NCBI GenBank assembly: GCA_021513695.1
Contig: CP084166.1
Location: forward strand, 480,001-544,000
Direction: 5' to 3'
DNA from: Candidatus Heimdallarchaeum aukensis
GTDB lineage: Archaea > Asgardarchaeota > Heimdallarchaeia > Heimdallarchaeales > Heimdallarchaeaceae
Length of the DNA: 64,000 nucleotides
Under the pieces are notes generated by a model. It saw only the letters and a program-made list of their open reading frames with translations, was not told the DNA's origin and made no database searches. Position numbers and translations under genes: made by a program. Positions 9,379 to 33,562 of this stretch are shown here, piece by piece. Position 1 is the first letter of the stretch. The number at the start of each line of letters is the position of its first letter.

Positions 9379-12300
9379 AATTGAAGAGATGTATAACGAT
9401 GGAGGAAGAATTTTTGTAGAAGTAGGACCTAAAAAAGCATTGTACAACTTTGTTAAAGATATTTTAGGTGAAAAAGAAGACATTCAAACTTTTCTTACAT
9501 TAAACCCGAAAGTAGGAGAGTTAAAATCTTTTAATGATACTGTCTCTAAATTAAAAATGAGCAAAAGAAGAGAAACCGAAACCCCAGTTCAAACTAAAGA
9601 AAAAATAGTTTACAAAGAATCAGCACTAGATGTTTTACTTAAAAATAAAGAGATTAACAACTTGGTCTCTAAACCCTATTTCCGTGAGTATTTGAAAGAG
9701 AACAGCAATCTTCTTTCATCTATAATGAAACAAGGTTACGAGCAGTTCTCAAAGTACAGAGAATCATTGGTTATTGCTGAAAAAGCTAAATATTGGGATA
9801 TAAACTTTGATCTTATTGGTGTTACTGGTGTTGGAATTGGTCTCCCAGGAAAGAATAGAGCTGTTTTCTCTGATGATAATTTTGATCTTATTCTCAATGG
9901 AACAAATCTTATCGAATCTGTTGAAGATACAATAAAACAAGAAACTTTAGACAAAAACATCGTTAGGTTAGTTAAATCTCCTGATGGTAATGCAACTTTT
10001 GAAGCAATTGACGATATAAGTAAAGTTATTCAACTTGCAGCACAGATAGGAGAATTAAACTTCAAAGAATTAGGTATAGAAGATAAATTGGCTAAAGCTT
10101 TAGACTCCACTTTTATTATGGCTATAGGTGCAGGACTAGAAGCGTTGAAAGATGCTGGTATTCCTCTTGTTGAAAGCAAAATAGTTACTTCAACTGGAAA
10201 AACTTTGAAAGGGAGCTGGACTTTACCAGAATCCTTACAACATGATACTGGAATAGTTTTTGCTTCTGCTTTTCCCGGATATGATAATTTAGTAGATGAA
10301 GTAACAAGACATCTTGTAGCTAAATTTGAAAACAAAACTAATAAAGAGATTGAGGAGATATTTGAGCAATTAATTAATGTTGTATCAAACCCTGAAGCAA
10401 AAGAAGAGATCTCTAACTGGTTCTTGGAGAAACAATCTCTACTGGAAGAAAAAGAAGAAAAGTATACTTTTAGTAGAGAGTTCCTTTACAAAGTTTTGTC
10501 TATGGGGCACTCTCAATTTGCCCAATTTATTAAAGCTAAAGGTCCGAATACTCAAGTCAATGCTGCTTGTGCTTCTACAACCCAAGCAATTGGTGTAGCA
10601 GAAGATTGGATAAGAACTGGAAGATGTAAGAGAGTAATAGTAATAGCTGGAGACAATGCTGCAAGCAAGAATCTGTTACCTTGGATAGGTGGGGGATTCT
10701 TAGCAGCTGGGGGAGTAACCACAAAAGCCGATGTTAAAGAAGCTGCTTTACCTTTTGGAAAAGAAAGACATGGATTAATTATAGGTTCAGCTTCTGCAGG
10801 TCTTGTAATTGAAAGCAGAGAATCCTATGAAGAAAGAGGAGTTAAACCAATAGTAGACCTTGTGGGTACTTATATGGCAAATAGTGCTTATCATGGTTCT
10901 AGATTAGATGTCAACCATATTTCTGAAGAACTTGAAAGCTTTATTGAAAAAGTAGAAAGAAGATATAATATCGACAGGAAAAATATCGCTAAAGAAGGTA
11001 TTTTTGTCTCTCATGAAACTTATACACCTGCAAGAGGAGGAAGTGCAGAAGCAGAAATTCAATCACTTCTTAATGTTTTCAAAGAAGATGCTTATTCTAT
11101 GACCATAATAAACACAAAAGGATTTACAGGTCATTCAATGGGTGCAGGAATAGAAGAAGCTGTAGCTATTAAAGCAATAGAAAAAGGTAAGATTCCTCCA
11201 ATTGCTAACATAGAGAAACTTGACCCTGCCTTTTCTAAATTTAAGTTCTCAAAAGGAGAAAAGAGAAGATTTTCCTTCGCTTTGAGATTAGCAGCTGGAT
11301 TTGGGTCACAATTAGCTTTTGCTCTCTTCAGGTTAAATACTTACGACAACAGATTCTCTGCCCAATACAATGAATGGCTCAAGAGTCTTGGTGGTGGCAA
11401 AGAAGAGTTATTTGTTGAAGGCAGAGTACTTAAACTCAAAACAGATAATAAGAAAAAACAAGCTGATTTAGTTAAGAAACCAGCAGTACAAAAAACTGTT
11501 GAAAAGAAAATTAAAACTGTTACAAAAGCACCTACAGATATTCTTCAAGTTGTAAAAGATATTATTTCTGAAAAAACAGGTTATGAAACAGAAGTCATTG
11601 AAGAAAATATGCATTTAGAAGAAGATCTTGGGATTGACAGTATTAAAGCAGCAGAAATAATGAACGATATTAGCGATAAATGGTCAATACCTCAAGAAAA
11701 ACTCTTCGAACAATTTGATATCGATACACCAGGAAAAATTGCAAAGTTCATTTCTGAAAACACAAGCGCTCCTGAAGAGACAAGTTATTCAGTTGAAACA
11801 ACTGTAGCAAAAGAGGAAGTAAAAAGAGCAGAAACTTCTAGTGTTTCAACAGGAGATATTTTAGTGCGAATTAAAGAAGTAATTGGAAAACACACAGGTT
11901 ATGACATTCAAGATCTAGATGAAAACTATGACCTAGAAGAAGATCTGGGAATAGATACAGTAAAACAAGCAGAAATTTTTGGAGATTTAAGAGATTTATT
12001 CGGATTGGATTTAGATGAGACTTATGCTTTAGCAGATTATCGAACAATAGCTGACATTGCCCAAGCAATATCTACAGAGAAACCAGTGGAAAAGGTTAAA
12101 CAAGTGGAAACTGAAGAAAGCGGAGAGATTAGAACAGCACAACAACCAACAATCATATCTGAAGCTGAAAGTTCAATTTCCAGAGAAGAAGTTACAAAAG
12201 AAGTGCTTTCAATTATCTCAGAAATTACAGGATACGATACAGAAGATATAGAAATAGAGATGGATCTAGAGGAAGATTTGGGTGTTGATAGTATCAAGAT

Positions 12301-15300
12301 TGCTGAAATTCTAAGCTCTTTGGGAAGTAAGTTCGACCTTGAATTTGATGAGATGTCTGATCTTTCAGGAATTAGAAATACAGAAGATATAGTGGAAGCA
12401 GTGATAAAAATTAAGCAATCCATTGAACAAACTCAAACCCCAACCAAAACAGAAGAACAATTAGCTGTAAGTCAAAAACTTAAAGTTGAACAAGAAGAAG
12501 AAATAGTTATTCGTAGTGTAGAACCTGTTCTAAAGCCTTTAGAACAAAGTGAAGTAAATAAATTTAATCTAGAAGATAAAAATCTCTTACTTCTAGATAT
12601 TCATTCAAAAGAAGCCAAATATATCTATTCTTTACTTGAACAGAAGAAGGCTAAAATTGAGCTTGTTAGGATTAATTCTGAAGACTCAGAAAAACCAAAT
12701 AATAATAAATATGACTTAATCTTAATCTTATTACCAGATGATCACAATTCTGCAAATGATACTAAATACTTTGAGCAACTATTTCTTACCCTACAACAGC
12801 TAGAGTACAATCATAATACTAAGATTGTTTCTTACTCTGTTGAAGACTATTTAGACTCTAAAAAGGAGATAATTCCTTTAAGTGGAGGTATATCCGCTTT
12901 TGTTAAGACTATTGGTCAAGAATTTGAACTAGACATTAAACATGTTTATTCCACAAAACCTGAAGAACTAGTTACAGAGTTGGAAAATTGGGATAAAAAC
13001 CTTGAAGTTATTTATTCAGAGGGTAAAAGATACATTTTCAGTCACATGAGAAAAATACCTCTAGAACAATTACAAAAAGAAAAAATCGAACTTACAGAAG
13101 ATGATCTTATACTTGTTACTGGAGGAGCAAGAGGTATCACTTATGAATGTATTAAAGAACTTACAAAAGATGCTAAACCTTCAATTGCTATCGTTGGTAG
13201 AACTAAACTTCCAGAAGATGTATCTGAATTGCTCTTCTTAACCGACAAAGAAATAGCAAACAAAAAAGAAGAGATAAAAGAAAAACTTGCTCAAGAAAAT
13301 GAAAAAGTTACTCCAGTGATGATAGAAAAAGCTTGGAAACGCTTCCTAAACACTGTTGAAATTGCAAAGAATATTCTCTATTTAATTGAAAATGAAGTGA
13401 ATGCTAACTATTATTCTGCAGATGTTTCAGATGAAGAACAAATGAAAAGTGTTTTGAGTCAAATTGAAGAAGATTTCGAAAAAACTATAACTCTTATTGT
13501 ACATGGTGCGGGAATAGAAGAATCTAAAGCTTTCAAGAAAAAGAAACTAGAAATGGCAAAGAAAATAGTACAAGTAAAGATTTCAGGGTTATACAATATT
13601 CTAAATAATATAGATCAATCTAATTTGAAGAAGATCATCTGCTTTAGCTCAATTGCAGGAAGATTTGGTAATAGAGGACAAGTGGATTATGCTTTTGCAA
13701 ATGGTTATCTAGCTAGAACATGCTGGAAGTTTAAACAACAAGGAATTAACGCTCTAGCTATAGATTGGTCAGCTTGGGCAGATATAGGCATGGCAACACA
13801 AGGTTCTATTCTTAAAGTGCTGAAAGCTGCAGGAATAACTCCCATTCCATTAAAAGAAGGAATAAGAATATTTTCTGAACTAACCAATTACAATGTAGAA
13901 CAAAGTGAATTAATAGTTGCAGGAAAACTTGGACTTCTTCTAAAAGAAATAGAAGATAAAAAAACAAGTGGTCAACACGATACTAGTATGAACACAGAGA
14001 GTTATCCAATGATTGATGAAATTAGAAAAACAGACAACGGTTTTATTGCTTCAAAGACACTAAAATATGATTATGACTTATACATGAGAGATCATCAAAT
14101 CCAAGGATTGCCAATATTTCCTGCAGTAATGGGATTAGAATTCTTCGCTGAGATGTTCAAACTTACAACAGAAAAAGATGTTTACGCAATAGCAGAAGTA
14201 TCGTTTAGAGAAGCAATTAAACAGTTTAAGAACAAAAATGTTGAACTTCAATGTTCATTTGATACAGAAAGAGGGGATATGGAAATTAAAACAATCTTTA
14301 CAGACATTAAAGGAGTTCAAAAAGAAAAGAAACACTTCTTCTGTAAGTCTGTAAAAGATACGACAGAAAAAAGCTATAAGAAAAAGAAGATAGAAAAAAG
14401 AGTGATACCACTACTTTCCAAAGAAGTGATCTATCAGCTTTTCTTCCATGGTCCAAGTTTTCAAGTTTTGGAGAATTTGAATGAGATAAAAGGAAATATC
14501 ATCTCCACTAATGTCCAGATTCCAAATCTGCCTTTATTCAAAGATGAAGAATTGAAAACTATTCTCGTTCCTCGAGCAATAGAAGCGGCTTTACAGACAG
14601 CAGGGTTGTATGACATGTTCATTAACAATGTTGTTTCATTGCCATCAAAAATAAAAAACTTGGAAGTATACAAGGAAACAGAAGCTGTTTTTGCTGAAGC
14701 TGAATTCCTAAAGATAGAGGAAAGACATAGTTTCTTCAATGTAAAGATTTACGATGCTGAAGGAGAAGTAATAATGGTTTTAGAACAACTAGGAATGATA
14801 CATACTTCTATGCCCATAAATTTGGACGAAAAAGGAAAGAAACTCTTCCAGATGATTAAAGGATATCATGAAATAAGAACAAAAGTAGATGACGAAAAAG
14901 TAGCTGTTTTACCTATTCACAAAGTAGTAGAAGAATACAGAAAAAATAGACAAGAACTAGAAAATAAACTAGTTGCTTACGAAAAAACAAGATTTACTAA
15001 AATATCCAACGAAAAAAGAAAAATGGAATATTTAGCGGGAGTAATCCTTGCTAAAGAACTTTTTTCCAAATATGAAAACATTACCGATTTCAGAAGTATA
15101 GAAATAAAAAAGAAGAGTAAGGGGCAACCTTACTTTTTCAACAGACAACTAAAAGAAGAAACGGATTGGTATGTTTCTATTAGTCATTCAAATGATTTCG
15201 CTGTAGTCTCTATTGAGAAACAACCAGTAGGAATAGACATAGAAAAAGTAGAAGAAAGAAGTAAAAGTTTCTATGGCGAAGTTTTTTCAGATTATGAATT

Positions 15301-15538
15301 ATCAAAAATTGCTGATGACCATACTTTAGGAACAAAATATTGGACTGCTAAAGAGTCATTAACTAAAGCATTAGGAGAAGGATTACATATTAAACTAAAA
15401 GAAATTGAGTTTGGTTACAACGATGGCAAATTTGATCTAAAAAAATATCCTTCTTCTCTAAAACAAGATCAATTGCAGACTTCTATTGAATCTATTGAAG
15501 CAGCAGGTTATGTTGTTTCTAAATGTGTAATAAAATAA
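7577..15538 (+). CDS. PKS/FAS-like megasynthase, 3' segment: duplicated partial KS - AT - second KS - three tandem ACPs - ketoreductase - dehydratase - C-terminal Sfp/EntD-type 4'-phosphopantetheinyl transferase domain.
   Basis: TTG start inside the repeated KS. AT copy at 8583-9440. KS2 (about 9780-11350): IGVTGVGIGLPG, NAACASTTQAIG, SHETYTPARGG, GHSMGAGIEEA...IPP. ACPs: LEEDLGIDSIKAAEIM (about 11620), LEEDLGIDTVKQAEIF (about 11935), LEEDLGVDSIKIAEIL (about 12265). KR: LVTGGARGITYE (about 13110) and YAFANGY. DH hot-dog: HQIQGLPIFPAVMGLEF (about 14090). PPTase: ...VSISHSNDFAVVSIEKQPVGIDIEKVEE...WTAKESLTKALGEG (15000-15538). Confidence 0.8.
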   Translation: MSDEEVEKFVSSFKKEYLSKYAEITEDTMPGELSNVVAGRIANIFNLSGKSMTTDAACASSLAALDIAVKSLLNNDFDTILVGGADRSMDVSSYVKFSKIGALSATGSRPFDSKADGFVMGEGCGFLVLKKLKKAIEDNDKIYAIIDSVGSSSDGKGKGITAPNPLGQKEAIERALEQAKVSPSEIDLIEAHGTSTIVGDKTEVQVLNEIFTEKQKERKRKIALGSIKSQIGHLKSAAGIASVIKVALALDKKILPPTINVQELNPAIDWNNSNLFVNLDAQPWEKVDNSIRRAGVSAFGFGGTNYHTILEEYIPEAQYIEKEKQPIVELKEQKEEVCFLYTGQGSQYLGMIKELYDNYPTVRKTIDEASVIAKESLNADLREIIFGSPQLSKVENEERLRQTEYTQPSLFVVEVALTRLLKEKGIEPTRVAGHSLGEYTALVAAGVFSFEDGLKAVIERGKAMAKASKSIPGAMAAILTSQEKVKEIIEKVNEGYITVANYNSLNQTVISGEEKAVNKAIELFSARKIKAIKLNVSTAFHSIIVKDAEIEMERVLNSLTYNKPSIPVYSNVTGSLYPDKPSKIKELLINQLCNSVQWVKIIEEMYNDGGRIFVEVGPKKALYNFVKDILGEKEDIQTFLTLNPKVGELKSFNDTVSKLKMSKRRETETPVQTKEKIVYKESALDVLLKNKEINNLVSKPYFREYLKENSNLLSSIMKQGYEQFSKYRESLVIAEKAKYWDINFDLIGVTGVGIGLPGKNRAVFSDDNFDLILNGTNLIESVEDTIKQETLDKNIVRLVKSPDGNATFEAIDDISKVIQLAAQIGELNFKELGIEDKLAKALDSTFIMAIGAGLEALKDAGIPLVESKIVTSTGKTLKGSWTLPESLQHDTGIVFASAFPGYDNLVDEVTRHLVAKFENKTNKEIEEIFEQLINVVSNPEAKEEISNWFLEKQSLLEEKEEKYTFSREFLYKVLSMGHSQFAQFIKAKGPNTQVNAACASTTQAIGVAEDWIRTGRCKRVIVIAGDNAASKNLLPWIGGGFLAAGGVTTKADVKEAALPFGKERHGLIIGSASAGLVIESRESYEERGVKPIVDLVGTYMANSAYHGSRLDVNHISEELESFIEKVERRYNIDRKNIAKEGIFVSHETYTPARGGSAEAEIQSLLNVFKEDAYSMTIINTKGFTGHSMGAGIEEAVAIKAIEKGKIPPIANIEKLDPAFSKFKFSKGEKRRFSFALRLAAGFGSQLAFALFRLNTYDNRFSAQYNEWLKSLGGGKEELFVEGRVLKLKTDNKKKQADLVKKPAVQKTVEKKIKTVTKAPTDILQVVKDIISEKTGYETEVIEENMHLEEDLGIDSIKAAEIMNDISDKWSIPQEKLFEQFDIDTPGKIAKFISENTSAPEETSYSVETTVAKEEVKRAETSSVSTGDILVRIKEVIGKHTGYDIQDLDENYDLEEDLGIDTVKQAEIFGDLRDLFGLDLDETYALADYRTIADIAQAISTEKPVEKVKQVETEESGEIRTAQQPTIISEAESSISREEVTKEVLSIISEITGYDTEDIEIEMDLEEDLGVDSIKIAEILSSLGSKFDLEFDEMSDLSGIRNTEDIVEAVIKIKQSIEQTQTPTKTEEQLAVSQKLKVEQEEEIVIRSVEPVLKPLEQSEVNKFNLEDKNLLLLDIHSKEAKYIYSLLEQKKAKIELVRINSEDSEKPNNNKYDLILILLPDDHNSANDTKYFEQLFLTLQQLEYNHNTKIVSYSVEDYLDSKKEIIPLSGGISAFVKTIGQEFELDIKHVYSTKPEELVTELENWDKNLEVIYSEGKRYIFSHMRKIPLEQLQKEKIELTEDDLILVTGGARGITYECIKELTKDAKPSIAIVGRTKLPEDVSELLFLTDKEIANKKEEIKEKLAQENEKVTPVMIEKAWKRFLNTVEIAKNILYLIENEVNANYYSADVSDEEQMKSVLSQIEEDFEKTITLIVHGAGIEESKAFKKKKLEMAKKIVQVKISGLYNILNNIDQSNLKKIICFSSIAGRFGNRGQVDYAFANGYLARTCWKFKQQGINALAIDWSAWADIGMATQGSILKVLKAAGITPIPLKEGIRIFSELTNYNVEQSELIVAGKLGLLLKEIEDKKTSGQHDTSMNTESYPMIDEIRKTDNGFIASKTLKYDYDLYMRDHQIQGLPIFPAVMGLEFFAEMFKLTTEKDVYAIAEVSFREAIKQFKNKNVELQCSFDTERGDMEIKTIFTDIKGVQKEKKHFFCKSVKDTTEKSYKKKKIEKRVIPLLSKEVIYQLFFHGPSFQVLENLNEIKGNIISTNVQIPNLPLFKDEELKTILVPRAIEAALQTAGLYDMFINNVVSLPSKIKNLEVYKETEAVFAEAEFLKIEERHSFFNVKIYDAEGEVIMVLEQLGMIHTSMPINLDEKGKKLFQMIKGYHEIRTKVDDEKVAVLPIHKVVEEYRKNRQELENKLVAYEKTRFTKISNEKRKMEYLAGVILAKELFSKYENITDFRSIEIKKKSKGQPYFFNRQLKEETDWYVSISHSNDFAVVSIEKQPVGIDIEKVEERSKSFYGEVFSDYELSKIADDHTLGTKYWTAKESLTKALGEGLHIKLKEIEFGYNDGKFDLKKYPSSLKQDQLQTSIESIEAAGYVVSKCVIK

Positions 15539-15572
15539 TATGGAGATTAAAAAAAAAAAAAGGTGATAATAT

Positions 15573-16334
15573 ATGTTACAACTGAATTATGATATAAAAT
15601 TTAGAAAGGATTTCATTCATGGAATTCTTTATTTGCCGGATGAAGAGGGGCAGTTCCCTTTAGTTATAAGATTGAACGGTTTTCCGGGCAATTCTCCAGA
15701 AAAAGAAGAACAAAGATTAGCAGATATTATCACCCAGAATAATATGGCTTTTTATGCCTTTGACTATGTAGGAGTAAGAAAAAGTACAGGGACATTTAAT
15801 TATTATACGAGTTTGGAAAACATAAATACTGTTATAACAGATTTATCACATCATCCTCGAATTAATCCTGCAAAGATTGCTCTTCTTGGAGAAAGCTTCG
15901 GAGGAGCAATGGCAATAAGCCAAGGAGTAAGAGACCAAAGAATAAAATGTATTGTTTTAAGGTCTCCTGTATATGATACTGAAGTTATTCCTCAAATACC
16001 GTCTTTTAATACTTTAGTTAAAATATGGTCCAGAAACAATCAAATACGTTTCCCTAAAGGAGACATAAGTGAATTATACTACAAACAAACTAATCTTTAC
16101 AATCCTAAAAAAATAGCAAATTTAGTTAATTGCCCCGTAAAATTGATTGCAGGAGATAAAGATGAGTTGTTGGAAGTTAAGGGTTTTAGAGAACTTTACA
16201 AATGTTTACCACGGAAACTAAGAAAAGGAATTGATATCATTAAAGGAGCAGATCATAACTTTACTAAACAAAAACAGTTTATAGAATTAAAGAGTGAACT
16301 TTCCAGCTTTTTGACTTGTTGCCTTTTAGGGTAA
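15573..16334 (+). CDS. Alpha/beta-fold hydrolase (dienelactone hydrolase/esterase-like); candidate thioesterase for the megasynthase.
   Basis: 253 aa. GxSxG nucleophile elbow LLGESFGGAMA, a later Asp (AGDKDE) and His (GADHNF). The start sits 35 nt after the megasynthase stop. Confidence 0.55.
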   Translation: MLQLNYDIKFRKDFIHGILYLPDEEGQFPLVIRLNGFPGNSPEKEEQRLADIITQNNMAFYAFDYVGVRKSTGTFNYYTSLENINTVITDLSHHPRINPAKIALLGESFGGAMAISQGVRDQRIKCIVLRSPVYDTEVIPQIPSFNTLVKIWSRNNQIRFPKGDISELYYKQTNLYNPKKIANLVNCPVKLIAGDKDELLEVKGFRELYKCLPRKLRKGIDIIKGADHNFTKQKQFIELKSELSSFLTCCLLG

Positions 16335-16346
16335 ATAACTTATGGA

Positions 16347-16838
16347 GTGCAAAAGATGAAGAAAAAAATAATCTACAACAATGAAGAATACATAATAGAA
16401 GCTAAAGGAGAAGACGAGATAGTAGTGAATAATAAGACTTTCAAAGTTAACTTAAAAGAGAAAAACAAGAATTTTTTCAATATAGAAATTCAAGGAAAGA
16501 AGTTTATTATAGAAGTAAGAGAAGGAGAATTCTATTTAGACGGAGAGAAAATAGAAAAATTATCAATTAGCCCCTATTTTCCACAATTAAAGAAACAAAA
16601 ACAAATGATTAACTCTCAAAAAGAAGTAGTAAAAGCACCTATACCAGGAACTATAACTCAAATACTAGTTAAAGAAGGAGATACAGTAAAAAAAGACCAA
16701 GAATTATTTATCCTTGAAGCGATGAAAATGAGAAATAGAATCTTAACAACCATTGACAAAGGTGTAGTAAAAAAAATCTACGTTAGCGAGAATGAAACTG
16801 TATCTCAAGATCAAAAACTAGCTATAATTGAAAATTAA
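16347..16838 (+). CDS. accB: Biotin carboxyl carrier protein (BCCP, biotinyl/lipoyl domain).
   Basis: C-terminal biotinyl domain with EAMKM (the biotinylated Lys in FILEAMKMRNRI). 163 aa. Confidence 0.75.
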   Translation: MQKMKKKIIYNNEEYIIEAKGEDEIVVNNKTFKVNLKEKNKNFFNIEIQGKKFIIEVREGEFYLDGEKIEKLSISPYFPQLKKQKQMINSQKEVVKAPIPGTITQILVKEGDTVKKDQELFILEAMKMRNRILTTIDKGVVKKIYVSENETVSQDQKLAIIEN

Positions 16839-17073
16839 ATAAAAAAATAACAAAACAAATTTATTGCAAAAATAATTTAAAATTCGCACAAATATTTGGA
16901 TACTTCTTCTTTTTTAAATTCAAATTTTATCAAAAACTTGAAAAGAATGCTAAATAGTCTATTTTTTAAATAAATAGGAAACAAAAAAAGTTTAGACTAA
17001 GTGGTTAGTTTTTGAAGTATAAATGAGGAGAAATAGGAACTGTATAATTTAAAGAAGAATAAAAAAAATAGGA

Positions 17074-17661
17074 CTAATCAACCATAAGTTTGGGAAATTT
17101 TGAAAGTTCCATTAATTTCATGAATTTTTTTCCTTTCTTAAAAATAGTATCTATACATTCAATTATTATATCCAAAAGCTCTTCTACTTTTTCTTTTTTT
17201 ACAGGTTTTAGTCCATGAGCAAGTATTGATTCATTTCTCTCTTTTAAAAGGTCTTTCATTTTGTTGGATGAAGAAAACATTTTCCCAAGATCATCATTCA
17301 AATCGTCTAAAACTAGATAACAATCATATAATCCCAACTTTACTTTTGAACCATTACTTTTTCTTTCTTTGAAATAACTTATACGTTGAGAAGAAACTCC
17401 TAACTTTTCTAATTGCTCTAAGGATATGTCATGGGGAGGTAAATTGTAGGCACTCTTTAATCTATACTGTGCCATAAGTTCTACAGCTCTGTAGAGCCTA
17501 GCCATTGCATCATCAAACTTTTCTTCTTTTAATCGACGTTTTGCGTTATTTAATAAATCTGCAAGAAAATAAAGGTCTTTCTCTATTTTTTTATCACTTT
17601 TATGTAACAAGTCGCACAAAAATTCTTTATTAAAACTATATTCTTTGCCAAGCTGTTTCAT
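17074..17661 (-). pseudogene. Duplicated 3' fragment of csx1 (HEPN half only) created by the 2.7-kb tandem duplication.
   Basis: Identical to the C-terminal 195 aa of the 409-aa Csx1 at 19770-20999. Lacks the CARF domain. The upstream frame is replaced by the repeat junction. Confidence 0.55.
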
Positions 17662-17679
17662 TTTATCAAAAGCTTCTTT

Positions 17680-18234
17680 ATGGTTAAATCTACTAAAATA
17701 TCCAACGAAAAAAGAAAAATGGAATATTTAGCGGGAGTAATCCTTGCTAAAGAACTTTTTTCCAAATATGAAAACATTACCGATTTCAGAAGTATAGAAA
17801 TAAAAAAGAAGAGTAAGGGGCAACCTTACTTTTTCAACAGACAACTAAAAGAAGAAACGGATTGGTATGTTTCTATTAGTCATTCAAATGATTTCGCTGT
17901 AGTCTCTATTGAGAAACAACCAGTAGGAATAGACATAGAAAAAGTAGAAGAAAGAAGTAAAAGTTTCTATGGCGAAGTTTTTTCAGATTATGAATTATCA
18001 AAAATTGCTGATGACCATACTTTAGGAACAAAATATTGGACTGCTAAAGAGTCATTAACTAAAGCATTAGGAGAAGGATTACATATTAAACTAAAAGAAA
18101 TTGAGTTTGGTTACAACGATGGCAAATTTGATCTAAAAAAATATCCTTCTTCTCTAAAACAAGATCAATTGCAGACTTCTATTGAATCTATTGAAGCAGC
18201 AGGTTATGTTGTTTCTAAATGTGTAATAAAATAA
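17680..18234 (+). pseudogene. Duplicated stand-alone copy of the megasynthase C-terminal PPTase domain.
   Basis: Identical to the last 184 aa of ORF 7577-15538 (GIDIEKVEE, WTAKESLTKALGEG). Begins at the repeat junction with a TTG/GTG-type start. Expression is uncertain. Confidence 0.45.
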
Positions 18235-18269
18235 TATGGAGATTAAAAATAAAAAAAAGGTGATAATAT

Positions 18270-19031
18270 ATGTTACAACTGAATTATGATATAAAATTTA
18301 GAAAGGATTTCATTCATGGAATTCTTTATTTGCCGGATGAAGAGGGGCAGTTCCCTTTAGTTATAAGATTGAACGGTTTTCCGGGCAATTCTCCAGAAAA
18401 AGAAGAACAAAGATTAGCAGATATTATCACCCAGAATAATATGGCTTTTTATGCCTTTGACTATGTAGGAGTAAGAAAAAGTACAGGGACATTTAATTAT
18501 TATACGAGTTTGGAAAACATAAATACTGTTATAACAGATTTATCACATCATCCTCGAATTAATCCTGCAAAGATTGCTCTTCTTGGAGAAAGCTTCGGAG
18601 GAGCAATGGCAATAAGCCAAGGAGTAAGAGACCAAAGAATAAAATGTATTGTTTTAAGGTCTCCTGTATATGATACTGAAGTTATTCCTCAAATACCGTC
18701 TTTTAATACTTTAGTTAAAATATGGTCCAGAAACAATCAAATACGTTTCCCTAAAGGAGACATAAGTGAATTATACTACAAACAAACTAATCTTTACAAT
18801 CCTAAAAAAATAGCAAATTTAGTTAATTGCCCCGTAAAATTGATTGCAGGAGATAAAGATGAGTTGTTGGAAGTTAAGGGTTTTAGAGAACTTTACAAAT
18901 GTTTACCACGGAAACTAAGAAAAGGAATTGATATCATTAAAGGAGCAGATCATAACTTTACTAAACAAAAACAGTTTATAGAATTAAAGAGTGAACTTTC
19001 CAGCTTTTTGACTTGTTGCCTTTTAGGGTAA
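18270..19031 (+). CDS. Alpha/beta hydrolase, second identical copy.
   Basis: 100% identical protein to 15573-16334. Confidence 0.55.
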   Translation: MLQLNYDIKFRKDFIHGILYLPDEEGQFPLVIRLNGFPGNSPEKEEQRLADIITQNNMAFYAFDYVGVRKSTGTFNYYTSLENINTVITDLSHHPRINPAKIALLGESFGGAMAISQGVRDQRIKCIVLRSPVYDTEVIPQIPSFNTLVKIWSRNNQIRFPKGDISELYYKQTNLYNPKKIANLVNCPVKLIAGDKDELLEVKGFRELYKCLPRKLRKGIDIIKGADHNFTKQKQFIELKSELSSFLTCCLLG

Positions 19032-19043
19032 ATAACTTATGGA

Positions 19044-19517
19044 GTGCAAAAGATGAAGAAAAAAATAATCTACAACAATGAAGAATACATAATAGAAGCT
19101 AAAGGAGAAGACGAGATAGTAGTGAATAATAAGACTTTCAAAGTTAACTTAAAAGAGAAAAACAAGAATTTTTTCAATATAGAAATTCAAGGAAAGAAGT
19201 TTATTATAGAAGTAAGAGAAGGAGAATTCTATTTAGACGGAGAGAAAATAGAAAAATTATCAATTAGCCCCTATTTTCCACAATTAAAGAAACAAAAACA
19301 AATGATTAACTCTCAAAAAGAAGTAGTAAAAGCACCTATACCAGGAACTATAACTCAAATACTAGTTAAAGAAGGAGATACAGTAAAAAAAGACCAAGAA
19401 TTATTTATCCTTGAAGCGATGAAAATGAGAAATAGAATCTTAACAACCATTGACAAAGGTGTAGTAAAAAAATCTACGTTAGCGAGAATGAAACTGTATC
19501 TCAAGATCAAAAACTAG
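19044..19517 (+). pseudogene. BCCP second copy, with the C-terminus altered by a 1-nt homopolymer-length difference.
   Basis: Identical to 16347-16838 up to ...DKGVVKK. An A7 tract replaces the A8 tract, so the protein ends ...STLARMKLYLKIKN, replacing the last 18 residues of the biotinyl domain fold. Confidence 0.5.
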
Positions 19518-19769
19518 CTATAATTGAAAATTAAATAAAAAAATAACAAAACAAATTTATTGCAAAAATAATTTAAAATTCGCACAAATATTTGGATACT
19601 TCTTCTTTTTTAAATTCAAATTTTATCAAAAACTTGAAAAGAATGCTAAATAGTCTATTTTTTAAATAAATAGGAAACAAAAAAAGTTTAGACTAAGTGG
19701 TTAGTTTTTGAAGTATAAATGAGGAGAAATAGGAACTGTATAATTTAAAGAAGAATAAAAAAAATAGGA

Positions 19770-20999
19770 CTAATCAACCATAAGTTTGGGAAATTTTGAA
19801 AGTTCCATTAATTTCATGAATTTTTTTCCTTTCTTAAAAATAGTATCTATACATTCAATTATTATATCCAAAAGCTCTTCTACTTTTTCTTTTTTTACAG
19901 GTTTTAGTCCATGAGCAAGTATTGATTCATTTCTCTCTTTTAAAAGGTCTTTCATTTTGTTGGATGAAGAAAACATTTTCCCAAGATCATCATTCAAATC
20001 GTCTAAAACTAGATAACAATCATATAATCCCAACTTTACTTTTGAACCATTACTTTTTCTTTCTTTGAAATAACTTATACGTTGAGAAGAAACTCCTAAC
20101 TTTTCTAATTGCTCTAAGGATATGTCATGGGGAGGTAAATTGTAGGCACTCTTTAATCTATACTGTGCCATAAGTTCTACAGCTCTGTAGAGCCTAGCCA
20201 TTGCATCATCAAACTTTTCTTCTTTTAATCGACGTTTTGCGTTATTTAATAAATCTGCAAGAAAATAAAGGTCTTTCTCTATTTTTTTATCACTTTTATG
20301 TAACAAGTCGCACAAAAATTCTTTATTAAAACTATATTCTTTGCCAAGCTGTTTCATTTTATCAAAAGCTTCTTTATGGTTAAATCTATCCCATAAACTA
20401 AAAGAATCAATTAAATTGTAATAGTATTCTTTTGTTTTGTCTCCGTTTAATAATACTATTTCATCTAAATAATTTCGTGCAGCATTATATCGATAATTAT
20501 TGAAAGATTCTTTCATTCTCCTTAACAATAATTTGTCATATACTGAATAAAGACTTTGCTCGACAATTCTTTCAGTACCTGAAAGAACAACACCATCTTT
20601 TCTTCTGCCTGAAATCAAAGTTAGTTTTTTGTGAAAAAGTACTGCAGCGATAGCTGCACTCATAGTCATTGTTTTTGTTCCAGAAGTATAGTCAATTATT
20701 ATTTCAGAATTGGAATACTTGTATATCTCATTCTGAATTAGTTGAAAACAACTATCAAAATCATCAATAGAAGTAAATTGAATAAATTCGTAAGAAGACA
20801 ATTCCTTGTTATACTGTGATTTATGTTGCCTTTCTATCTCCTTTATTGTTTTACGACTGTCTTCAGAACCAAAAAAAACAATATGATCAGGTTTATAGTG
20901 TTCAATACAAACTAGCAGTCCATGAGCTAAACTCTCAATTTTCTTGTCAACGTCCTCCCCTATTGCAGTTCCTACAGTCATAAAAAGAATACGTTTCAT
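19770..20999 (-). CDS. csx1: Csx1/Csm6-family CARF-HEPN ribonuclease (type III CRISPR ancillary effector).
   Basis: N-terminal CARF: MKRILFMTVGTAIG... and IIDYTSGTKTMTMSA (the D-x-T-x-G-T-K-x-M motif). C-terminal HEPN R-x6-H: RNESILAH. 409 aa. Confidence 0.7.
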   Translation of the reverse strand: MKRILFMTVGTAIGEDVDKKIESLAHGLLVCIEHYKPDHIVFFGSEDSRKTIKEIERQHKSQYNKELSSYEFIQFTSIDDFDSCFQLIQNEIYKYSNSEIIIDYTSGTKTMTMSAAIAAVLFHKKLTLISGRRKDGVVLSGTERIVEQSLYSVYDKLLLRRMKESFNNYRYNAARNYLDEIVLLNGDKTKEYYYNLIDSFSLWDRFNHKEAFDKMKQLGKEYSFNKEFLCDLLHKSDKKIEKDLYFLADLLNNAKRRLKEEKFDDAMARLYRAVELMAQYRLKSAYNLPPHDISLEQLEKLGVSSQRISYFKERKSNGSKVKLGLYDCYLVLDDLNDDLGKMFSSSNKMKDLLKERNESILAHGLKPVKKEKVEELLDIIIECIDTIFKKGKKFMKLMELSKFPKLMVD

Positions 21000-21111
21000 G
21001 GTAAACCACTAACTAACTTTTAAAATAATTAAATCAAAATTTTTAAGCGTTACTAAAAACAAATATGTAAATAAAGCAATTACAAGGTAAAAATCCGTCA
21101 TCTTACTCAAC

Positions 21112-21690
21112 TTAAATTACTTTGAAACGGCCATAACCTAATGCAGTTTTTGCACCTAGTCCATGAATTTTCAATATGCCTGGCAGTAAGCTATTAATAA
21201 AATTCAAGTCTTCATCCATTTCAGTATAGTTTCTCTTTGGTAATAGCACAATTTGAAACTCTTGTTCAACATCAACAGCAAGAAACGGAATAGGAATAGG
21301 CTTCATCCAATCTCCTGGTGCTTCTTTTTCCAAATAATATTGTGAATAATGAGGAGTAATAATTTCTCCTTTTAATCTTGGAAATTTAGTTGGTAACATG
21401 TCTAAAAATATCATAGAACCAACTTCATTTGAGAGAGTTTTTTGATTTTCTTCTTTTGATAAAGAACCAAAAATTCTCTTTATTTGTTTTTTTTCGTTAT
21501 CGTCGTCCATTAGATCTATTATATAATCACGGATAGCACCTTTCAACGAGCTACCAGGTAGAAAAGGAACACCTAATGTATAGTGCCACAGAAAACCCAC
21601 TTCAATTGGATGTGGAAGACCAACACCTGTAATAAATGGAGTCAAAGTTCTAACATAAATAATTCTTCCATTTCGCTGTTCAGACAACAA
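21112..21690 (-). CDS. cmr6: Cmr6 (Cas7-group RAMP). The frame is actually open upstream to 21933.
   Basis: RAMP signatures: PFITGVGLPHP, FLPGSSLKGAIRDY and a C-terminal G-rich loop HGLGAKTALGYGRF. The ORF track starts at a TTG. The same frame stays open for 81 more codons up to the in-frame stop at 21934-21936, which overlaps the cmr5 stop. No ATG/GTG/TTG occurs in that extension. Confidence 0.6.
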   Translation of the reverse strand: MLSEQRNGRIIYVRTLTPFITGVGLPHPIEVGFLWHYTLGVPFLPGSSLKGAIRDYIIDLMDDDNEKKQIKRIFGSLSKEENQKTLSNEVGSMIFLDMLPTKFPRLKGEIITPHYSQYYLEKEAPGDWMKPIPIPFLAVDVEQEFQIVLLPKRNYTEMDEDLNFINSLLPGILKIHGLGAKTALGYGRFKVI

Positions 21691-21926
21691 TAGTCTATGC
21701 TCAATGCATCTCTTAAGTAAAAAATTTTCATGTTTTACTTCATTATCAGTAAGTTTAGTAAAATGTTCAATCCATTTTTTCTTTCCCTCACTTATATATT
21801 CGATGTAATTATTTTTTTTCCACTTGTCAAAAAATTTTGAGTAGACTAAACCCTTGTTTGCACATTTATAGTTTTCATAGAAAAAGTTTTGTTCATTAAA
21901 CTTATGTCCTTTATAGATTACATTAG

Positions 21927-22223
21927 TCAGTTTTCATTCACCTCAACCTTGGCTTGAGCTAGTTTTTTTAGCCATCCAAGGAACTCTAAAGTTTCTATCT
22001 GTGCAAGAATATACTCATCTTGTGTTGCATTTGTAATGTTATAAATTAAATCATTAGAATCTGTAAAAATATTCACCTTTTTTAACCATGTTTCTATAAT
22101 ATCAACAATTTTTTTATGGGCCTTTTTATCGCCATTATCGGGTTTAGGAGTTGCACTTGCTAGTTCCATTGCAATGGCTTGTCCAAGACCATTCATTACA
22201 ATTGTAGCTGGTAAACTTTTCAC
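21927..22223 (-). CDS. cmr5: Cmr5 (Cas11 small subunit).
   Basis: 98-aa helical protein between cmr4 and cmr6. It carries an NGLGQAIAMELAS-type motif resembling the Cmr5 GLG region. The call rests on position and size. Confidence 0.5.
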   Translation of the reverse strand: MKSLPATIVMNGLGQAIAMELASATPKPDNGDKKAHKKIVDIIETWLKKVNIFTDSNDLIYNITNATQDEYILAQIETLEFLGWLKKLAQAKVEVNEN

Positions 22224-22327
22224 ATAACTTAAAAAGCTTGAATTGTTTATTTCGTCATCATCAATTACTTCATTTATTGATGCTAAAGCAAATTTAGCCC
22301 TATCGTTATCTGATAAAAACTCCAGAT

Positions 22328-23275
22328 TTATTCACCTCCTTTATCTGCATCAATTTTATCTATATGATGAATGATTTTTTCTGCATAATCCAGTTTTACA
22401 TGAAACCAACCTTGACCAACAGTTTCATTTCCTCCGATCTGGAGAAAACAACTATTAGTTAATAAATTGTCCAAAAAATCAATTCCATCTTCCTCAGAAA
22501 AAACTAAGCAATACATTAGAGTATCAGAGGAAATGTACTCTTCGTACCACAAATTTCTGCTTGACTTTGTCTCTGAATTTAATATATTCCTTGCTCGTAT
22601 TTCTAACCCAAAATTTGCGAACCATTTAAAATCATCATTATGAAGTATAACAAGCTGGTCTTTTAGTCTGTTCCTTACATCATCATCGGGTATCATAGCT
22701 GATAATAAATTAGCCAAATTGTCTATACCTTCACTTTCTTCTTTTTCAAATTGCCGTTCTTCAAGAAAAATATATTGTTCATTCACACAAGATAGAGTTT
22801 TTCCTCTTGTCACTTCGGGAATTGTAAATGAATATTTTATTCCTAAGCGTTTTAGGTCTCTTTTCAGTCTTTCTAATATATATGGACAAGTAATCCATCT
22901 ATAATTCGTCAATAAACTTCGTACTGGTAGCAATAGTAAGCGTGCATCAGAAATTAATAATTTTCCAGCAGAATCAGAACTTCCAAAGTACTTATCAACC
23001 TTTTTATTTGTTATATTAGAATTAACACCAACATTCTCATTAGCTAAACCACGCAGTGAGCCTTTTAAACTAGTGCTTGGTATGAAAGGATAACTTGTAA
23101 TTGTTTCACGAGCTACGGGACAATCTACTATTGATGTAGGATGTCCAGTTCCTGTATGAACAAATGTTTCAGCCAACATTTTCATTATTTTCCCTTTTAA
23201 ATTCGACTTCTTTTCATTTTGTTCCATATTAATCACCTCTTTCCCATTTTCCAAAAAGAAATTGTCCAAATCCAA
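22328..23275 (-). CDS. cmr4: Cmr4 (Cas7 backbone RAMP).
   Basis: FIPSTSLKGSLRGL and a C-terminal G-rich loop QIGGNETVGQGWF. 315 aa from the longest start. The true start is probably an internal Met (MEQNEKK or MKMLAETF), because the longest start overlaps the cmr3 3' end by 47 nt. Confidence 0.7.
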   Translation of the reverse strand: MDLDNFFLENGKEVINMEQNEKKSNLKGKIMKMLAETFVHTGTGHPTSIVDCPVARETITSYPFIPSTSLKGSLRGLANENVGVNSNITNKKVDKYFGSSDSAGKLLISDARLLLLPVRSLLTNYRWITCPYILERLKRDLKRLGIKYSFTIPEVTRGKTLSCVNEQYIFLEERQFEKEESEGIDNLANLLSAMIPDDDVRNRLKDQLVILHNDDFKWFANFGLEIRARNILNSETKSSRNLWYEEYISSDTLMYCLVFSEEDGIDFLDNLLTNSCFLQIGGNETVGQGWFHVKLDYAEKIIHHIDKIDADKGGE

Positions 23276-24389
23276 ATTCAGTTAATTTACCTATTTTATT
23301 GGAAACCAATCTTTTTAATGAAGATGTATTTTTTTCATCAAAAAAGAATGTAGACCCTGGAGGAATAAAAGGTCTGACTTCTAGAGGTTCTTTTTTTACT
23401 GCATTCCATCCTCCAATGCGAAGAATATCACCAATGTTAGCACCTATAACCTCAGAACCAAACTTTTTTGACAAAAATGTCATAACTTCATCTAGAGAAT
23501 CTCCTAAATATGCAGGAGTAATAAATGTAATTGTAAAATTATCAGAAACTGTTGAAATAGGGGGTATTTTATCAATTACTGGGAATTCTATTTCCTTGTA
23601 ACTAATATTAGCTATCTTTCCTTCTCCACCTATACGGTTACACCAATTTTCAATTGAGTCAAGTAAATCAATACCATTGACTTTCATACAAAGTACAATA
23701 TTTTCTAACCTTATCATTTGACGCGAAAATAAATTTCCAGTAACTGCAGTATTGGTTGTAGGATCTATTTCAATACCAATCTCATTTTCTTTTTGCCATA
23801 ATTTATTCTCAGAGAGAAAACGAACATTTTTAAGACTTTCAGAAGAAAAGGACAATAATCTTTCTAGATCATCAAATTTAACATAATAATTTTGTAATGT
23901 TTTATAACCATAATTACCACTTCTTCTTGGAAGTAAAATACTCTTTCTATCATGTTTGTCTTTACTTATACTTGACAAATACTTTTGTTTAGAAGGAATT
24001 AAATAATCCAGATCTACAATCTCTTCGTTTTTTTGAGAGGAAATGTGTCCAATTATATGTAAAGGAACAGGAAATAAAGGATGAAATTGATTATCCTCTT
24101 TTAATAATAAGTAAGGACCAAAAAAGTCTAAAGGCCCAAGATCGGTACCATCACCCAATTTACTAATTATATTTTCATCCCATTTACTGCTTCCATCCCA
24201 TCCATAATATCGAGCTAGTAAGGATCTTATTAGTCCAGTAATTGAAAATGGAGATGGTGGAAAAACACTTTTAACAAAATCTGACGAACTATCACTTTTA
24301 TAGAAAGAATAGTTTCCTCTAAAAAACAACCTATCTAAAGGTTCAATTATGAAACACTGTTCCTTAGCCATTTTTATTACCAACCCCAT
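23229..24389 (-). CDS. cmr3: Cmr3 (Cas5-group RAMP).
   Basis: The N-terminus FIIEPLDRLFFRGNYSF matches the Cmr3 IxPLDPLFFRDG signature. 386 aa. Lies between cas10 and cmr4. Confidence 0.7.
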   Translation of the reverse strand: MGLVIKMAKEQCFIIEPLDRLFFRGNYSFYKSDSSSDFVKSVFPPSPFSITGLIRSLLARYYGWDGSSKWDENIISKLGDGTDLGPLDFFGPYLLLKEDNQFHPLFPVPLHIIGHISSQKNEEIVDLDYLIPSKQKYLSSISKDKHDRKSILLPRRSGNYGYKTLQNYYVKFDDLERLLSFSSESLKNVRFLSENKLWQKENEIGIEIDPTTNTAVTGNLFSRQMIRLENIVLCMKVNGIDLLDSIENWCNRIGGEGKIANISYKEIEFPVIDKIPPISTVSDNFTITFITPAYLGDSLDEVMTFLSKKFGSEVIGANIGDILRIGGWNAVKKEPLEVRPFIPPGSTFFFDEKNTSSLKRLVSNKIGKLTEFGFGQFLFGKWERGD

Positions 24390-27569: not shown

Positions 27570-27836
27570 AATTATGACACCGTCAGCAATACAATTATTA
27601 TTTTATCTATTGTTTTTTATTTATAAGTTTAGTCTAATATTTTAAACAAAGTGTAATTTTAAATTTAAAATTTAAAAAAGCAATTATTTATTTATGATAG
27701 TCCTCATTACGTTTTATTTTTAGTAAAAATAGTTGTTTTAGTTAATCTTTTTTAAATGTAAAAGATAAATACTAATTTTTTCTATTAAATGGTTTAAATA
27801 CTTTTTTAAAGAAAGTATTACCTAATACATATAATT

Positions 27837-28980: not shown

Positions 28981-29200
28981 GAGTATACAAATTGCTCTTA
29001 CATCGCATTAAAATGAATACAATTGTAATAAAATCAATTCACCCTTATTACTCTGGAAAGTTTTCCAATAATGGAAATGTTCCTAGAGAAATTGGTGCAA
29101 TATATGATTCTTTAGTTTGCATTAATTCATAACTCTAGAAGAAGGATTTTTGAACAAGATTAAATTAAAAAAAAAAAAGGATATAGAGAAAGTTGAGTTG

Positions 29201-30718: not shown

Positions 30719-30910
30719 TTCTTCTCACCTGTCGTAAGTAGAGGCATCCTCATACTCAAATGGGATGCCAATTTATATTTCACTACCGTTCTTTAAAAAT
30801 CAATTGTGCTTATAAGCAAAGCCTAATCTTGTTTTAATCACCATCAAGAACTTTTATGAATATAAAAAGAAGAAAGCTTTTTATTGTTGTTATCATATTA
30901 AAATTTATTA

Positions 30911-33541: not shown

Positions 33542-33562
33542 TTTAACTTTTGTAAGTTATTT

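What the first reader, a model, noticed from the sequence alone, without database searches (positions are those of the whole stretch)
14995..20388. Second tandem duplication (about 2.7 kb) spanning the PPTase domain, hydrolase, BCCP and the 3' half of csx1, with two tiny differences between copies
The unit boundary cuts the megasynthase at the start of its PPTase domain on one side and csx1 in the middle on the other side. This yields a free-standing PPTase-domain ORF (17680-18234), a second hydrolase, a second BCCP and a HEPN-only csx1 fragment (17074-17661). The copies differ only by an A-to-T or T insertion in a poly-A tract (15549-15561 vs 18245-18258) and by A8 vs A7 (about 16769 vs 19447), which frameshifts the second BCCP. 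That looks like homopolymer sequencing noise or replication slippage, not divergence. Two exact tandem duplications within 15 kb of each other is unusual. It suggests either an unstable, recently rearranged locus or a systematic assembly problem in this region.
Basis: seen in the sequence. Interest (0 to 1): 0.55.

Follow-up and report, generated by a model that had tools for sequence, protein, structure and literature searches.

The report
Recent 2.7-kb tandem duplication, Asgard genome
A 2.7-kb stretch of the published Candidatus Heimdallarchaeum aukensis genome is present twice, head to tail; short-read assembly graphs suggest the join is real, but it is an ordinary, very recent duplication, whereas a neighbouring 2-kb duplication that splits a giant lipid-synthase gene looks like an assembly error.

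Summary
Window 14995-17692 and 17691-20388 are the same 2,698 nt (period 2,696), apart from two homopolymer indels.

The window is the published Ca. Heimdallarchaeum aukensis PM71 genome. It was assembled with metaSPAdes, scaffolded with LRScaf using MDA-amplified Nanopore reads, then polished with pilon.

All 41 related Asgard genomes and 5 metagenome contigs carry the segment once, so the duplication is derived and unique to this assembly.

An independent k=31 assembly (Logan) of run SRR15988954 gives three contigs that tile the locus. They break exactly at both unit boundaries, with 30-nt overlaps. A second run has a contig starting at the same base. That is the signature of a loop in the read graph, so the join is most likely real DNA and not only a scaffolding artefact.

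The short-read contig carries the ancestral state at both indel sites, so the two differences, including the frameshift in the second BCCP, are probably polishing errors.

No gene is destroyed. The by-products are a PPTase ORF lacking about 30 N-terminal residues and a Csm6 fragment with only the HEPN domain.

The other duplication (5393-9378) has no graph support and splits a conserved 3,515-aa megasynthase. It is probably an artefact or a rare variant.

This is an ordinary phenomenon and of low interest.

The parts
14995..17692 (.). Copy 1 of the repeated segment (2,698 nt; the period is 2,696 because the terminal TA is shared with copy 2)
   Evidence: It equals Logan contig L002 base for base, except for the missing T at 15553/15554.
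17691..20388 (.). Copy 2 of the repeated segment
17688..17692 (.). The novel join: ATCTA from the csm6 side meets ATTTA-CTAAAAT from the megasynthase side. There are 2 nt (TA) of perfect microhomology, or 4 of 5 matches.
   Evidence: No hairpin or inverted repeat of note at any breakpoint.
2998..15538 (+). PUFA-synthase-like megasynthase gene (ER-KS-AT-KS'-ACPx3-KR-DH-PPTase). It is intact at its 3' end despite duplication B. In this assembly it is interrupted by the other duplication.
15573..16334 (+). Alpha/beta hydrolase, copy 1 (UJG41227.1)
16347..16838 (+). Biotin carboxyl carrier protein, copy 1 (intact; EAMKM biotinylation motif)
17074..17661 (-). Csm6 3' fragment of 195 aa with only the HEPN domain (UJG41229.1). 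It lacks the CARF domain and most of the 6H domain, and has no native promoter.
17680..18234 (+). ORF across the join. Four codons come from antisense csm6 sequence, followed by megasynthase residues 3335-3515. It is an Sfp-type PPTase domain lacking about 30 N-terminal residues. PGAP calls a 171-aa version, UJG41230.1.
18270..19031 (+). Alpha/beta hydrolase, copy 2 (UJG41231.1, identical protein)
19044..19517 (+). BCCP copy 2. Its reading frame shifts at the A7 run (19466-19472), replacing the last 20 residues. This is probably a polishing error.
19770..20999 (-). Full-length csm6 (409 aa, CARF-6H-HEPN, UJG41233.1), the last gene of an array-less type III-B Cmr operon
15549..15561 (.). A13 run in copy 1. 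Copy 2 (18245-18258), the short-read contig and the relatives all have a T inside the run.
5393..9378 (.). The other tandem duplication: 2 x 1,993 nt, 100% identical, blunt join, and not a multiple of 3. It splits the megasynthase into 1,506 + 2,711 aa.
16884..35857 (.). Variable island between BCCP and accC: csm6, Cmr1-6, two unknown ORFs, a P-domain protein, a STAND-TPR ATPase and a DDE transposase remnant. Duplication B straddles its left edge, so it arose after the island was inserted.

Best explanation
Window 14995-20388 is a genuine and very recent head-to-tail duplication of a 2,696-bp segment. It is present in a substantial share of the Ca. Heimdallarchaeum aukensis PM71 population that was sequenced.

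Sequence of events:
1. (Shown) An array-less type III-B CRISPR-Cas island ending in csm6 was inserted between the BCCP and accC genes of a conserved Asgard acyl-CoA-carboxylase and megasynthase cluster.
2. (Inferred mechanism) A single illegitimate join then formed at a 2-nt microhomology (4 of 5 bases). It connected the middle of csm6 (about codon 204) to codon 3335 of the megasynthase. The likely route is replication slippage, template switching or unequal sister-chromosome exchange.

Consequences, as for any tandem duplication:
- One copy of every gene stays intact.
- There is an extra hydrolase and an extra BCCP.
- Two promoter-less by-products face away from each other at the join: an N-terminally truncated PPTase ORF and a Csm6 fragment with only the HEPN domain. 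Both are most likely inert (inferred).

The two differences between the copies are most likely uncorrected homopolymer errors in a region where short reads map ambiguously. The second BCCP is therefore probably intact.

The duplication is probably neutral or a mild dosage variant, and unstable.
For: 1. Source and pipeline. The exact proteins are UJG41225-41233 of Ca. H. aukensis, on a 3,081,793-bp record. The paper PMC8813620 gives metaSPAdes on Illumina PE150 from unamplified DNA, LRScaf with MDA-amplified Nanopore reads, and pilon at 346x.

2. Graph topology. Logan assemblies use k=31, hold each 31-mer only once and drop singleton k-mers. For run SRR15988954:
- Contig 7381 matches window 1-14969 at 100%. 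By its length it ends at 15024.
- Contig 21955 is exactly 14995-17692.
- Contig 7509 is exactly 34509-20359.
- The three contigs therefore overlap by exactly 30 nt (k-1) at the first and last shared base of the unit. This is what a loop formed by this very join predicts, at single-base resolution on both sides.

3. Second run. SRR15988958 has a contig that also starts at 14995.

4. Derived state. PR6 (L004), L001, L049 and all 41 species-level Asgard loci have KR-DH-PPTase, hydrolase, BCCP and accC once each. L046-48 have an unbroken 409-aa csm6 next to BCCP. None of the 46 loci has a large near-identical repeat.

5. Very recent origin. There are no substitutions in 2.7 kb, against 1-8% divergence from the nearest strains.

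6. The differences are probably errors. L002 and the relatives have A5TA8-like and A8. Both sites are among the longest of the unit's 12 homopolymers of at least 7 nt. The window shows 0 discrepancies against Logan in 27.7 kb of unique flank, against 2 in the 5.4-kb repeat.
Against: - No reads, read depth or graph links could be inspected. The support comes from contig ends only.
- The Logan assembly and the GenBank assembly share the same Illumina reads, so they are not fully independent.
- A low-frequency join could also break the contigs, after which an assembler's loop traversal or LRScaf could have written two copies for a population that mostly has one.
- LRScaf is reported to inflate duplication, and an unsupported duplication sits 5.6 kb upstream (dup A ends at 9378, unit B starts at 14995).
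- The right boundary was seen in one run only.
- The library types of the two SRR runs are inferred, not looked up.
- The join was not found in JGI metagenome contigs.
Confidence: 0.65

Rival explanations
1. Assembly artefact. The organism carries the segment once. A rare or chimeric join in the reads created a loop in the graph, and metaSPAdes loop traversal or LRScaf joining of overlapping contigs wrote the unit twice. Pilon then left or introduced the two homopolymer differences.
For: - The pipeline was metaSPAdes plus two rounds of LRScaf with MDA-amplified, PCR-barcoded Nanopore reads.
- A benchmark attributes high duplication ratios largely to LRScaf. LRScaf 'merges' contigs when the estimated gap is negative.
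- The neighbouring 1,993-nt duplication is 100% identical, breaks a conserved ORF, and is read through as a single copy by the short-read contig.
- No relative has either duplication.
Against: - A pure scaffolding artefact would leave the short-read graph linear. Instead the contigs break at both unit boundaries to the base, and a second run's contig starts at the left boundary.
- The join survived Minia3's SPAdes-like graph cleaning, whereas any join for the other duplication did not.
- Plain end-to-end joining of the graph-delimited contigs (one ending at 17692, the next starting at 14995) would give TATA at the join. The window has a single TA.
Confidence: 0.2
2. The join is real but the structure is different: a minority subpopulation, a higher-order amplification of three or more copies, or an excised 2.7-kb circle alongside a single-copy chromosome.
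For: - Contig ends show only that a loop exists. They do not show how often it is traversed.
- Tandem duplications are known to expand, collapse and excise by recombination between copies (established knowledge).
- The sample is an enrichment culture population, not a clone.
Against: - The published assembly places two copies in tandem.
- The unit has no replication or recombination gene that would favour a circle.
- The join survived coverage-based graph cleaning, which argues against a very rare variant (the thresholds are not known to me exactly).
Confidence: 0.25
3. Adaptive gene amplification. The duplication was selected in the enrichment because extra hydrolase and BCCP dosage, or the new stand-alone PPTase or HEPN proteins, give an advantage.
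For: - The duplicated genes belong to one functional cluster (acyl-CoA carboxylase, megasynthase and the putative releasing hydrolase).
- The ORF across the join is in frame with an ATG.
- A duplication at high frequency despite its instability could hint at selection.
Against: - The PPTase ORF lacks about 30 N-terminal residues of the Sfp fold.
- Neither by-product has its own upstream region.
- The carboxyltransferase and biotin carboxylase partners are not duplicated.
- No other genome shows a similar state.
- There are no expression or frequency data.
Confidence: 0.06

Closest known systems
Spontaneous tandem duplications by short-homology (illegitimate, RecA-independent) joining, as described for Salmonella and E. 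coli (from my own knowledge of the Roth/Reams and Andersson work on duplication-amplification)
   Same: Head-to-tail copies, a single novel join with 2-5 nt of homology, one intact copy of every gene, identical copies, and the expected instability.
   Different: It occurs in an uncultivated Asgard archaeon reconstructed from an enrichment metagenome. Frequency, copy number and selection are unknown. The evidence for the join is graph topology, not reads.
False duplications introduced by long-read scaffolding of short-read contigs (LRScaf; benchmark in PMC10166144)
   Same: The same tool was used, and the result is exact or near-exact adjacent repeats in a 'finished' genome. The neighbouring 1,993-nt duplication fits this pattern well.
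   Different: For the 2.7-kb unit, the short-read graph branches exactly at both boundaries. A pure scaffolding artefact would not cause that.
Chimeras from multiple displacement amplification (from my own knowledge: mostly inverted joins with short homology, within about 10 kb)
   Same: The Nanopore DNA was MDA-amplified, and the join shows short microhomology.
   Different: The join is direct, not inverted. The branch appears in a run that gives 14-kb error-free contigs, which I infer to be the Illumina library made from unamplified DNA.

Membership tests
Genuine tandem segmental duplication | Two head-to-tail copies with no spacer and a single novel join | tested here: met
   14995-17692 = 17691-20388, sharing TA.
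Genuine tandem segmental duplication | Relatives carry the segment once, colinear with both flanks (derived state) | tested here: met
   41 Asgard genomes and 5 metagenome contigs are single copy. csm6 is unbroken in L046-48.
Genuine tandem segmental duplication | The join is present in sequencing reads independently of the scaffolder | tested here: met
   Indirect evidence. The k=31 Logan contigs of SRR15988954 break at 14995 and 17692/20388 with exact 30-nt overlaps. A contig of SRR15988958 starts at 14995. The reads themselves were not seen.
Genuine tandem segmental duplication | Read depth over the unit twice that of the flanks, with long reads spanning both copies | not testable with these tools
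   No read or coverage data are available.
Genuine tandem segmental duplication | Short homology at the two parental breakpoints | tested here: met
   ATTTA vs ATCTA, with TA shared. This is weak and could be chance in a 30% GC genome.
False duplication from scaffolding (LRScaf-type) | The assembly pipeline includes a step known to create duplications | tested here: met
False duplication from scaffolding (LRScaf-type) | The short-read graph is linear through the region (no branch at the unit ends) | tested here: not met
   Not met for 14995-20388. Met for the other duplication at 5393-9378, which contig L003 reads through as a single copy.
MDA chimera | The join is confined to the amplified library | tested here: inconclusive
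   The branch is present in SRR15988954, whose contigs match 27.7 kb of flank without error. Table S6 of the paper says the Illumina library was not MDA-amplified. The library type of the run is inferred, not verified.
Stand-alone Sfp-type 4'-phosphopantetheinyl transferase | Complete two-subdomain fold (about 225 aa) | tested here: not met
   The ORF starts at the equivalent of about Sfp residue 33. Pfam AASDHPPT_N matches only from profile position 35 of 100.
Csm6/Csx1 CARF-HEPN effector | CARF sensor domain plus HEPN RNase domain | tested here: not met
   The fragment 17074-17661 has only the HEPN domain. The full gene 19770-20999 has a Rossmann-like CARF domain, 6H and HEPN, and does meet the feature.

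The most novel reading that the evidence does not exclude
The duplication is a selected gene amplification in an Asgard archaeon growing in enrichment culture. It would raise the dosage of the putative chain-releasing hydrolase and the biotin carrier of a bacterial/eukaryote-like fatty-acyl megasynthase pathway. It would also release a sensor-less HEPN RNase and a free PPTase module, giving a live example of domain fission by duplication in the lineage closest to eukaryotes.
Probability: 0.06. Interest if true: 0.45.

Novelty: new member of a known kind. Interest (0 to 1): 0.2.

Why it matters
The main value is as quality control for one of the few 'complete' Heimdallarchaeial reference genomes. 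Three points follow for users of that record:
- The GenBank record shows the conserved 3,515-aa megasynthase as two proteins (UJG41226.1 and UJG42174.1) because of a probably spurious 1,993-nt duplication.
- It lists an extra hydrolase, a PPTase fragment, a Csm6 fragment and an apparently frameshifted BCCP, all of which come from the 2.7-kb duplication.
- Anyone counting gene families, domain architectures or pseudogenes in Asgard genomes should collapse or verify these entries.

Biologically, the 2.7-kb duplication would be one more example of an unstable tandem duplication, here caught in an uncultivated archaeon.

Tried and rejected
1. Strain-mixture explanation for the graph branches, i.e. 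a second strain identical only within the unit. Rejected as unsupported. The divergence step between L049 and the window lies near 15350, not at 14995, and the flanking Logan contigs are clean for 13.6 and 14.1 kb.

2. Mobile-element or circular-element explanation for the unit. It holds no integrase, transposase or replication gene, there are no terminal repeats or hairpins at the breakpoints, and there is no tRNA in the window.

3. Search for the join elsewhere. Exact 41-nt and 22-nt junction patterns gave no hit in JGI metagenome contigs. The 184-aa junction ORF is not on record in any assembly. Only GenBank's own 171-aa call exists.

4. Search for the right-boundary contig end in the second run. 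Only SRR15988954 was returned.

5. Using the perfect identity of the 1,993-nt copies to judge their origin. This is uninformative, because that unit has no homopolymer of 7 nt or more.

6. CRISPR array search (TRF and short direct repeats). None was found, which fits the paper's 'array-free operon'.

7. Literature search for an earlier description of these duplications. The genome paper mentions non-tandem repeats, CRISPR repeats and intragenic tandem repeats, and the word 'duplication' does not occur in it.
Full report
WHAT IS IN THE SEQUENCE

A self-comparison of the 64-kb window gives exactly two large repeats, both tandem:
- 14992-17692 against 17688-20388 (99.89%).
- 5393-7385 against 7386-9378 (1,993 nt, 100%).

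At base level the first one is a 2,698-nt segment, 14995-17692 = 17691-20388. Its two copies share the terminal dinucleotide TA, so the period is 2,696 nt.

The parental breakpoints read ...ACAAGATT|TACTAAAAT... and ...GGTTAAATCTA|TCCCATAA.... The join reads ...GGTTAAATC-TA-CTAAAAT....

Inside the unit the copies differ at two places only:
- Copy 1 has A13 where copy 2 has A5-T-A8.
- Copy 1 has A8 where copy 2 has A7.

WHAT THE GENES ARE

Pfam results show that the unit contains four things:
- The last 181 codons of a giant synthase, which is part of its C-terminal Sfp-type PPTase domain.
- An alpha/beta hydrolase.
- A biotin carboxyl carrier protein (BCCP).
- On the other strand, the 3' half of a CARF-6H-HEPN gene of the Csm6/TIGR02710 type.

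The cut in the synthase is at residue 3335. This aligns to about residue 33 of Sfp, so the ORF across the join (17680-18234) lacks roughly the first 30 residues of the fold. Its ATG and first four codons come from antisense csm6 sequence.

The cut in csm6 is at about residue 204 of 409. The 195-aa fragment has the HEPN domain but no CARF sensor.

Because the duplication is tandem, the megasynthase 3' end (copy 1) and the full csm6 (19770-20999, at the end of copy 2) both stay intact.

The A7 allele shifts the frame of the second BCCP after the EAMKM biotinylation motif and replaces its last 20 residues.

WHERE THE WINDOW COMES FROM

Exact protein look-ups identify the window as the published complete genome of Candidatus Heimdallarchaeum aukensis, a 3,081,793-bp record with proteins UJG41225-UJG41233. 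GenBank annotates all the products of both duplications:
- Two identical hydrolases.
- The 195-aa Csm6 fragment.
- A 171-aa PPTase protein.
- The synthase as 1,506 + 2,711 aa.

The genome paper (PMC8813620) describes the assembly:
- Illumina PE150 reads from a NEBNext library were assembled with metaSPAdes.
- The contigs were scaffolded in two rounds of LRScaf, using Nanopore reads made from MDA-amplified DNA.
- The result was polished with pilon at 346x.

The paper does not mention these duplications.

The LRScaf paper says that contigs with a negative estimated gap are 'merged'. [quoted passage not shown] An artefact was therefore a serious possibility.

COMPARISON WITH RELATIVES

The sister genome Ca. 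H. endolithica PR6 (L004, about 93-94% identical here) has both segments once. There BCCP is followed directly by the biotin carboxylase gene accC. The metagenome scaffolds L001 and L049 show the same arrangement.

All 41 species-level Asgard genomes that carry the hydrolase have the order KR-DH-PPTase (fused), hydrolase, BCCP, accC, each once and without csm6.

Three JGI metagenome contigs (L046-48, 96-99% identical) carry the Cmr operon with an unbroken 409-aa csm6 next to BCCP.

None of these 46 loci has a large near-identical repeat.

Two conclusions follow:
- The window's stretch of about 16884-35857 is a variable island: an array-less type III-B system with csm6, a STAND ATPase, a P-domain protein and a transposase remnant. 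It was inserted between BCCP and accC.
- The 2.7-kb duplication straddles the island's left edge, so it is younger than the insertion and unique to this assembly.

IS THE JOIN REAL?

The most informative evidence comes from Logan, an independent assembly of public runs. Logan uses k=31, represents every 31-mer once, discards singleton k-mers and cleans the graph with Minia3. In such an assembly a tandem repeat must appear as one contig, bounded by branch points.

For run SRR15988954:
- Contig 7381 (13,596 nt) is 100% identical to window 1-14969 over the 13,541 nt returned. By its length it ends at 15024.
- Contig 21955 (2,699 nt) is exactly 14995-17692.
- Contig 7509 (14,151 nt) is exactly 34509-20359.

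The three contigs therefore overlap by exactly 30 nt (k-1) at the first and the last base that the two copies share. That is what a loop closed by this particular join predicts. The first base at which the join context and the flank context differ is 14994 on the left and 17693/20389 on the right.

A contig from a second, noisier run of the same accession block (SRR15988958) also begins at exactly 14995.

A purely scaffolding-made duplication would have left the graph linear, and these contigs would have been fused.

I tested one alternative cause of the branches, a co-occurring strain identical only within the unit. The nearest strain's divergence step is near 15350, not at 14995, so I found no support for it.

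Caveats:
- I saw contig ends, not reads, depth or links.
- Logan and the GenBank assembly share the same Illumina reads.
- The frequency and copy number of the duplication in the population remain unknown.
- The right boundary was recovered from one run only.
- The join is absent from JGI metagenome contigs.

THE TWO SMALL DIFFERENCES

The short-read contig carries A5-T-A8 and A8. That is the copy-2 state at the first site and the copy-1 state at the second. The relatives also have a T inside the first run, and A8 at the second.

Each copy in the window therefore has one derived homopolymer state that the short-read consensus does not show. The two sites are the longest run and one of the two 8-nt runs among the unit's 12 homopolymers of at least 7 nt.

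The window has no discrepancy with Logan in 27.7 kb of unique flank, but two in the 5.4 kb where reads map ambiguously.

Residual polishing errors are the simplest reading. Real post-duplication slippage cannot be excluded: a collapsed graph would pick the ancestral allele at both sites by chance about one time in four.

THE OTHER DUPLICATION

The 1,993-nt unit (5393-7385) is not a multiple of three, and its join is blunt. It splits the synthase.

Removing one copy restores an uninterrupted 3,515-aa ORF. That ORF aligns end to end without gaps to a 3,519-aa MAG orthologue over all 3,515 of its residues (98.35%), and end to end, with two small gaps, to the 3,515-aa PR6 orthologue (95.05%).

The Logan contig reads straight through the region in single copy at 100% identity, with no break. 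The join is therefore absent from that run, or too rare to survive graph cleaning.

This duplication is most likely an assembly or scaffolding artefact, or at most a rare variant. The 'two duplications in 15 kb' therefore do not share one explanation.

MECHANISM AND MEANING

Shown:
- A single direct join with 2 nt of microhomology.
- Identical copies.
- Single-copy relatives.
- An origin after the island was inserted.
- A loop in the read graph.

Inferred:
- Formation by illegitimate recombination or template switching.
- Instability.
- No function for the by-products. The truncated PPTase and the sensor-less HEPN fragment face away from each other 18 bp apart, without their native upstream regions.

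There is no evidence for selection.

VERDICT

The thing itself is an ordinary, recent tandem duplication that is probably real in the sequenced population (confidence about 0.65). It has two probable polishing errors, and it sits next to a probably spurious duplication in a scaffolded metagenome-derived genome.

Interest is low. The practical value is a warning about the annotation of this Asgard reference genome.

Noticed in passing
window 5393-9378: A second tandem duplication (2 x 1,993 nt, 100% identical, blunt join, not a multiple of 3) splits a conserved 3,515-aa megasynthase into UJG41226.1 (1,506 aa) and UJG42174.1 (2,711 aa). The short-read Logan contig L003 reads through it in single copy, and the de-duplicated ORF aligns gap-free to a 3,519-aa MAG orthologue. 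It is probably an assembly artefact in the public record.
   Followed up: yes
window 3-16838 and 35862-37442: A gene cluster that looks bacterial or eukaryotic in an Asgard archaeon. It comprises PlsY-type glycerol-3-phosphate acyltransferase, biotin protein ligase, acyl-CoA carboxylase beta subunit, a single 3,515-aa PUFA-synthase-like megasynthase (ER-KS-AT-KS'-3xACP-KR-DH-PPTase), an alpha/beta hydrolase, BCCP and biotin carboxylase. The 3' part of the synteny is conserved in all 41 species-level Asgard genomes retrieved. In the searched literature I found only a passing mention of a Heimdallarchaeota PKS (PMC7472256). It may bear on fatty-acyl lipids and the 'lipid divide'.
   Followed up: partly
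window about 16884-35857: A variable island of about 16.3 kb (not counting the duplicated unit) sits between the convergent BCCP and accC genes. It holds an array-less type III-B Cmr1-6 operon with csm6, two unknown ORFs, a P-domain protein, an 876-aa STAND-TPR ATPase and a DDE transposase remnant (34532-35229). It is absent from PR6, L001 and L049, and shorter in JGI contigs L046-48. The window has no CRISPR array and no tRNA. It is probably the paper's 'array-free operon C7'.
   Followed up: partly
window 15350-17692 compared with L049 and L047: Divergence among close strains is mosaic. L049 is about 98.5% identical up to about 15350 and about 92% from there to 16860. L047 is 99% identical over 16452-17692 but 92.7% to the left of 16412. 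This suggests recombination tracts at the island's left flank.
   Followed up: partly
L050 (Logan SRR15988958 contig 481), equivalent to window 15699: The second run's contig carries an extra A in an A5 run that splits the hydrolase ORF. The dataset is therefore noisy, possibly one of the MDA-amplified Nanopore runs. Its platform was not verified.
   Followed up: no
L022 5713-6766 and L038 5885-6686: Diverged internal repeats of roughly 300 nt (74-86% identical) lie in the orthologous megasynthase genes upstream of the KR domain. I infer these are tandem ACP-domain repeats, as in PUFA synthases. They are unrelated to the near-identical duplications studied here.
   Followed up: no
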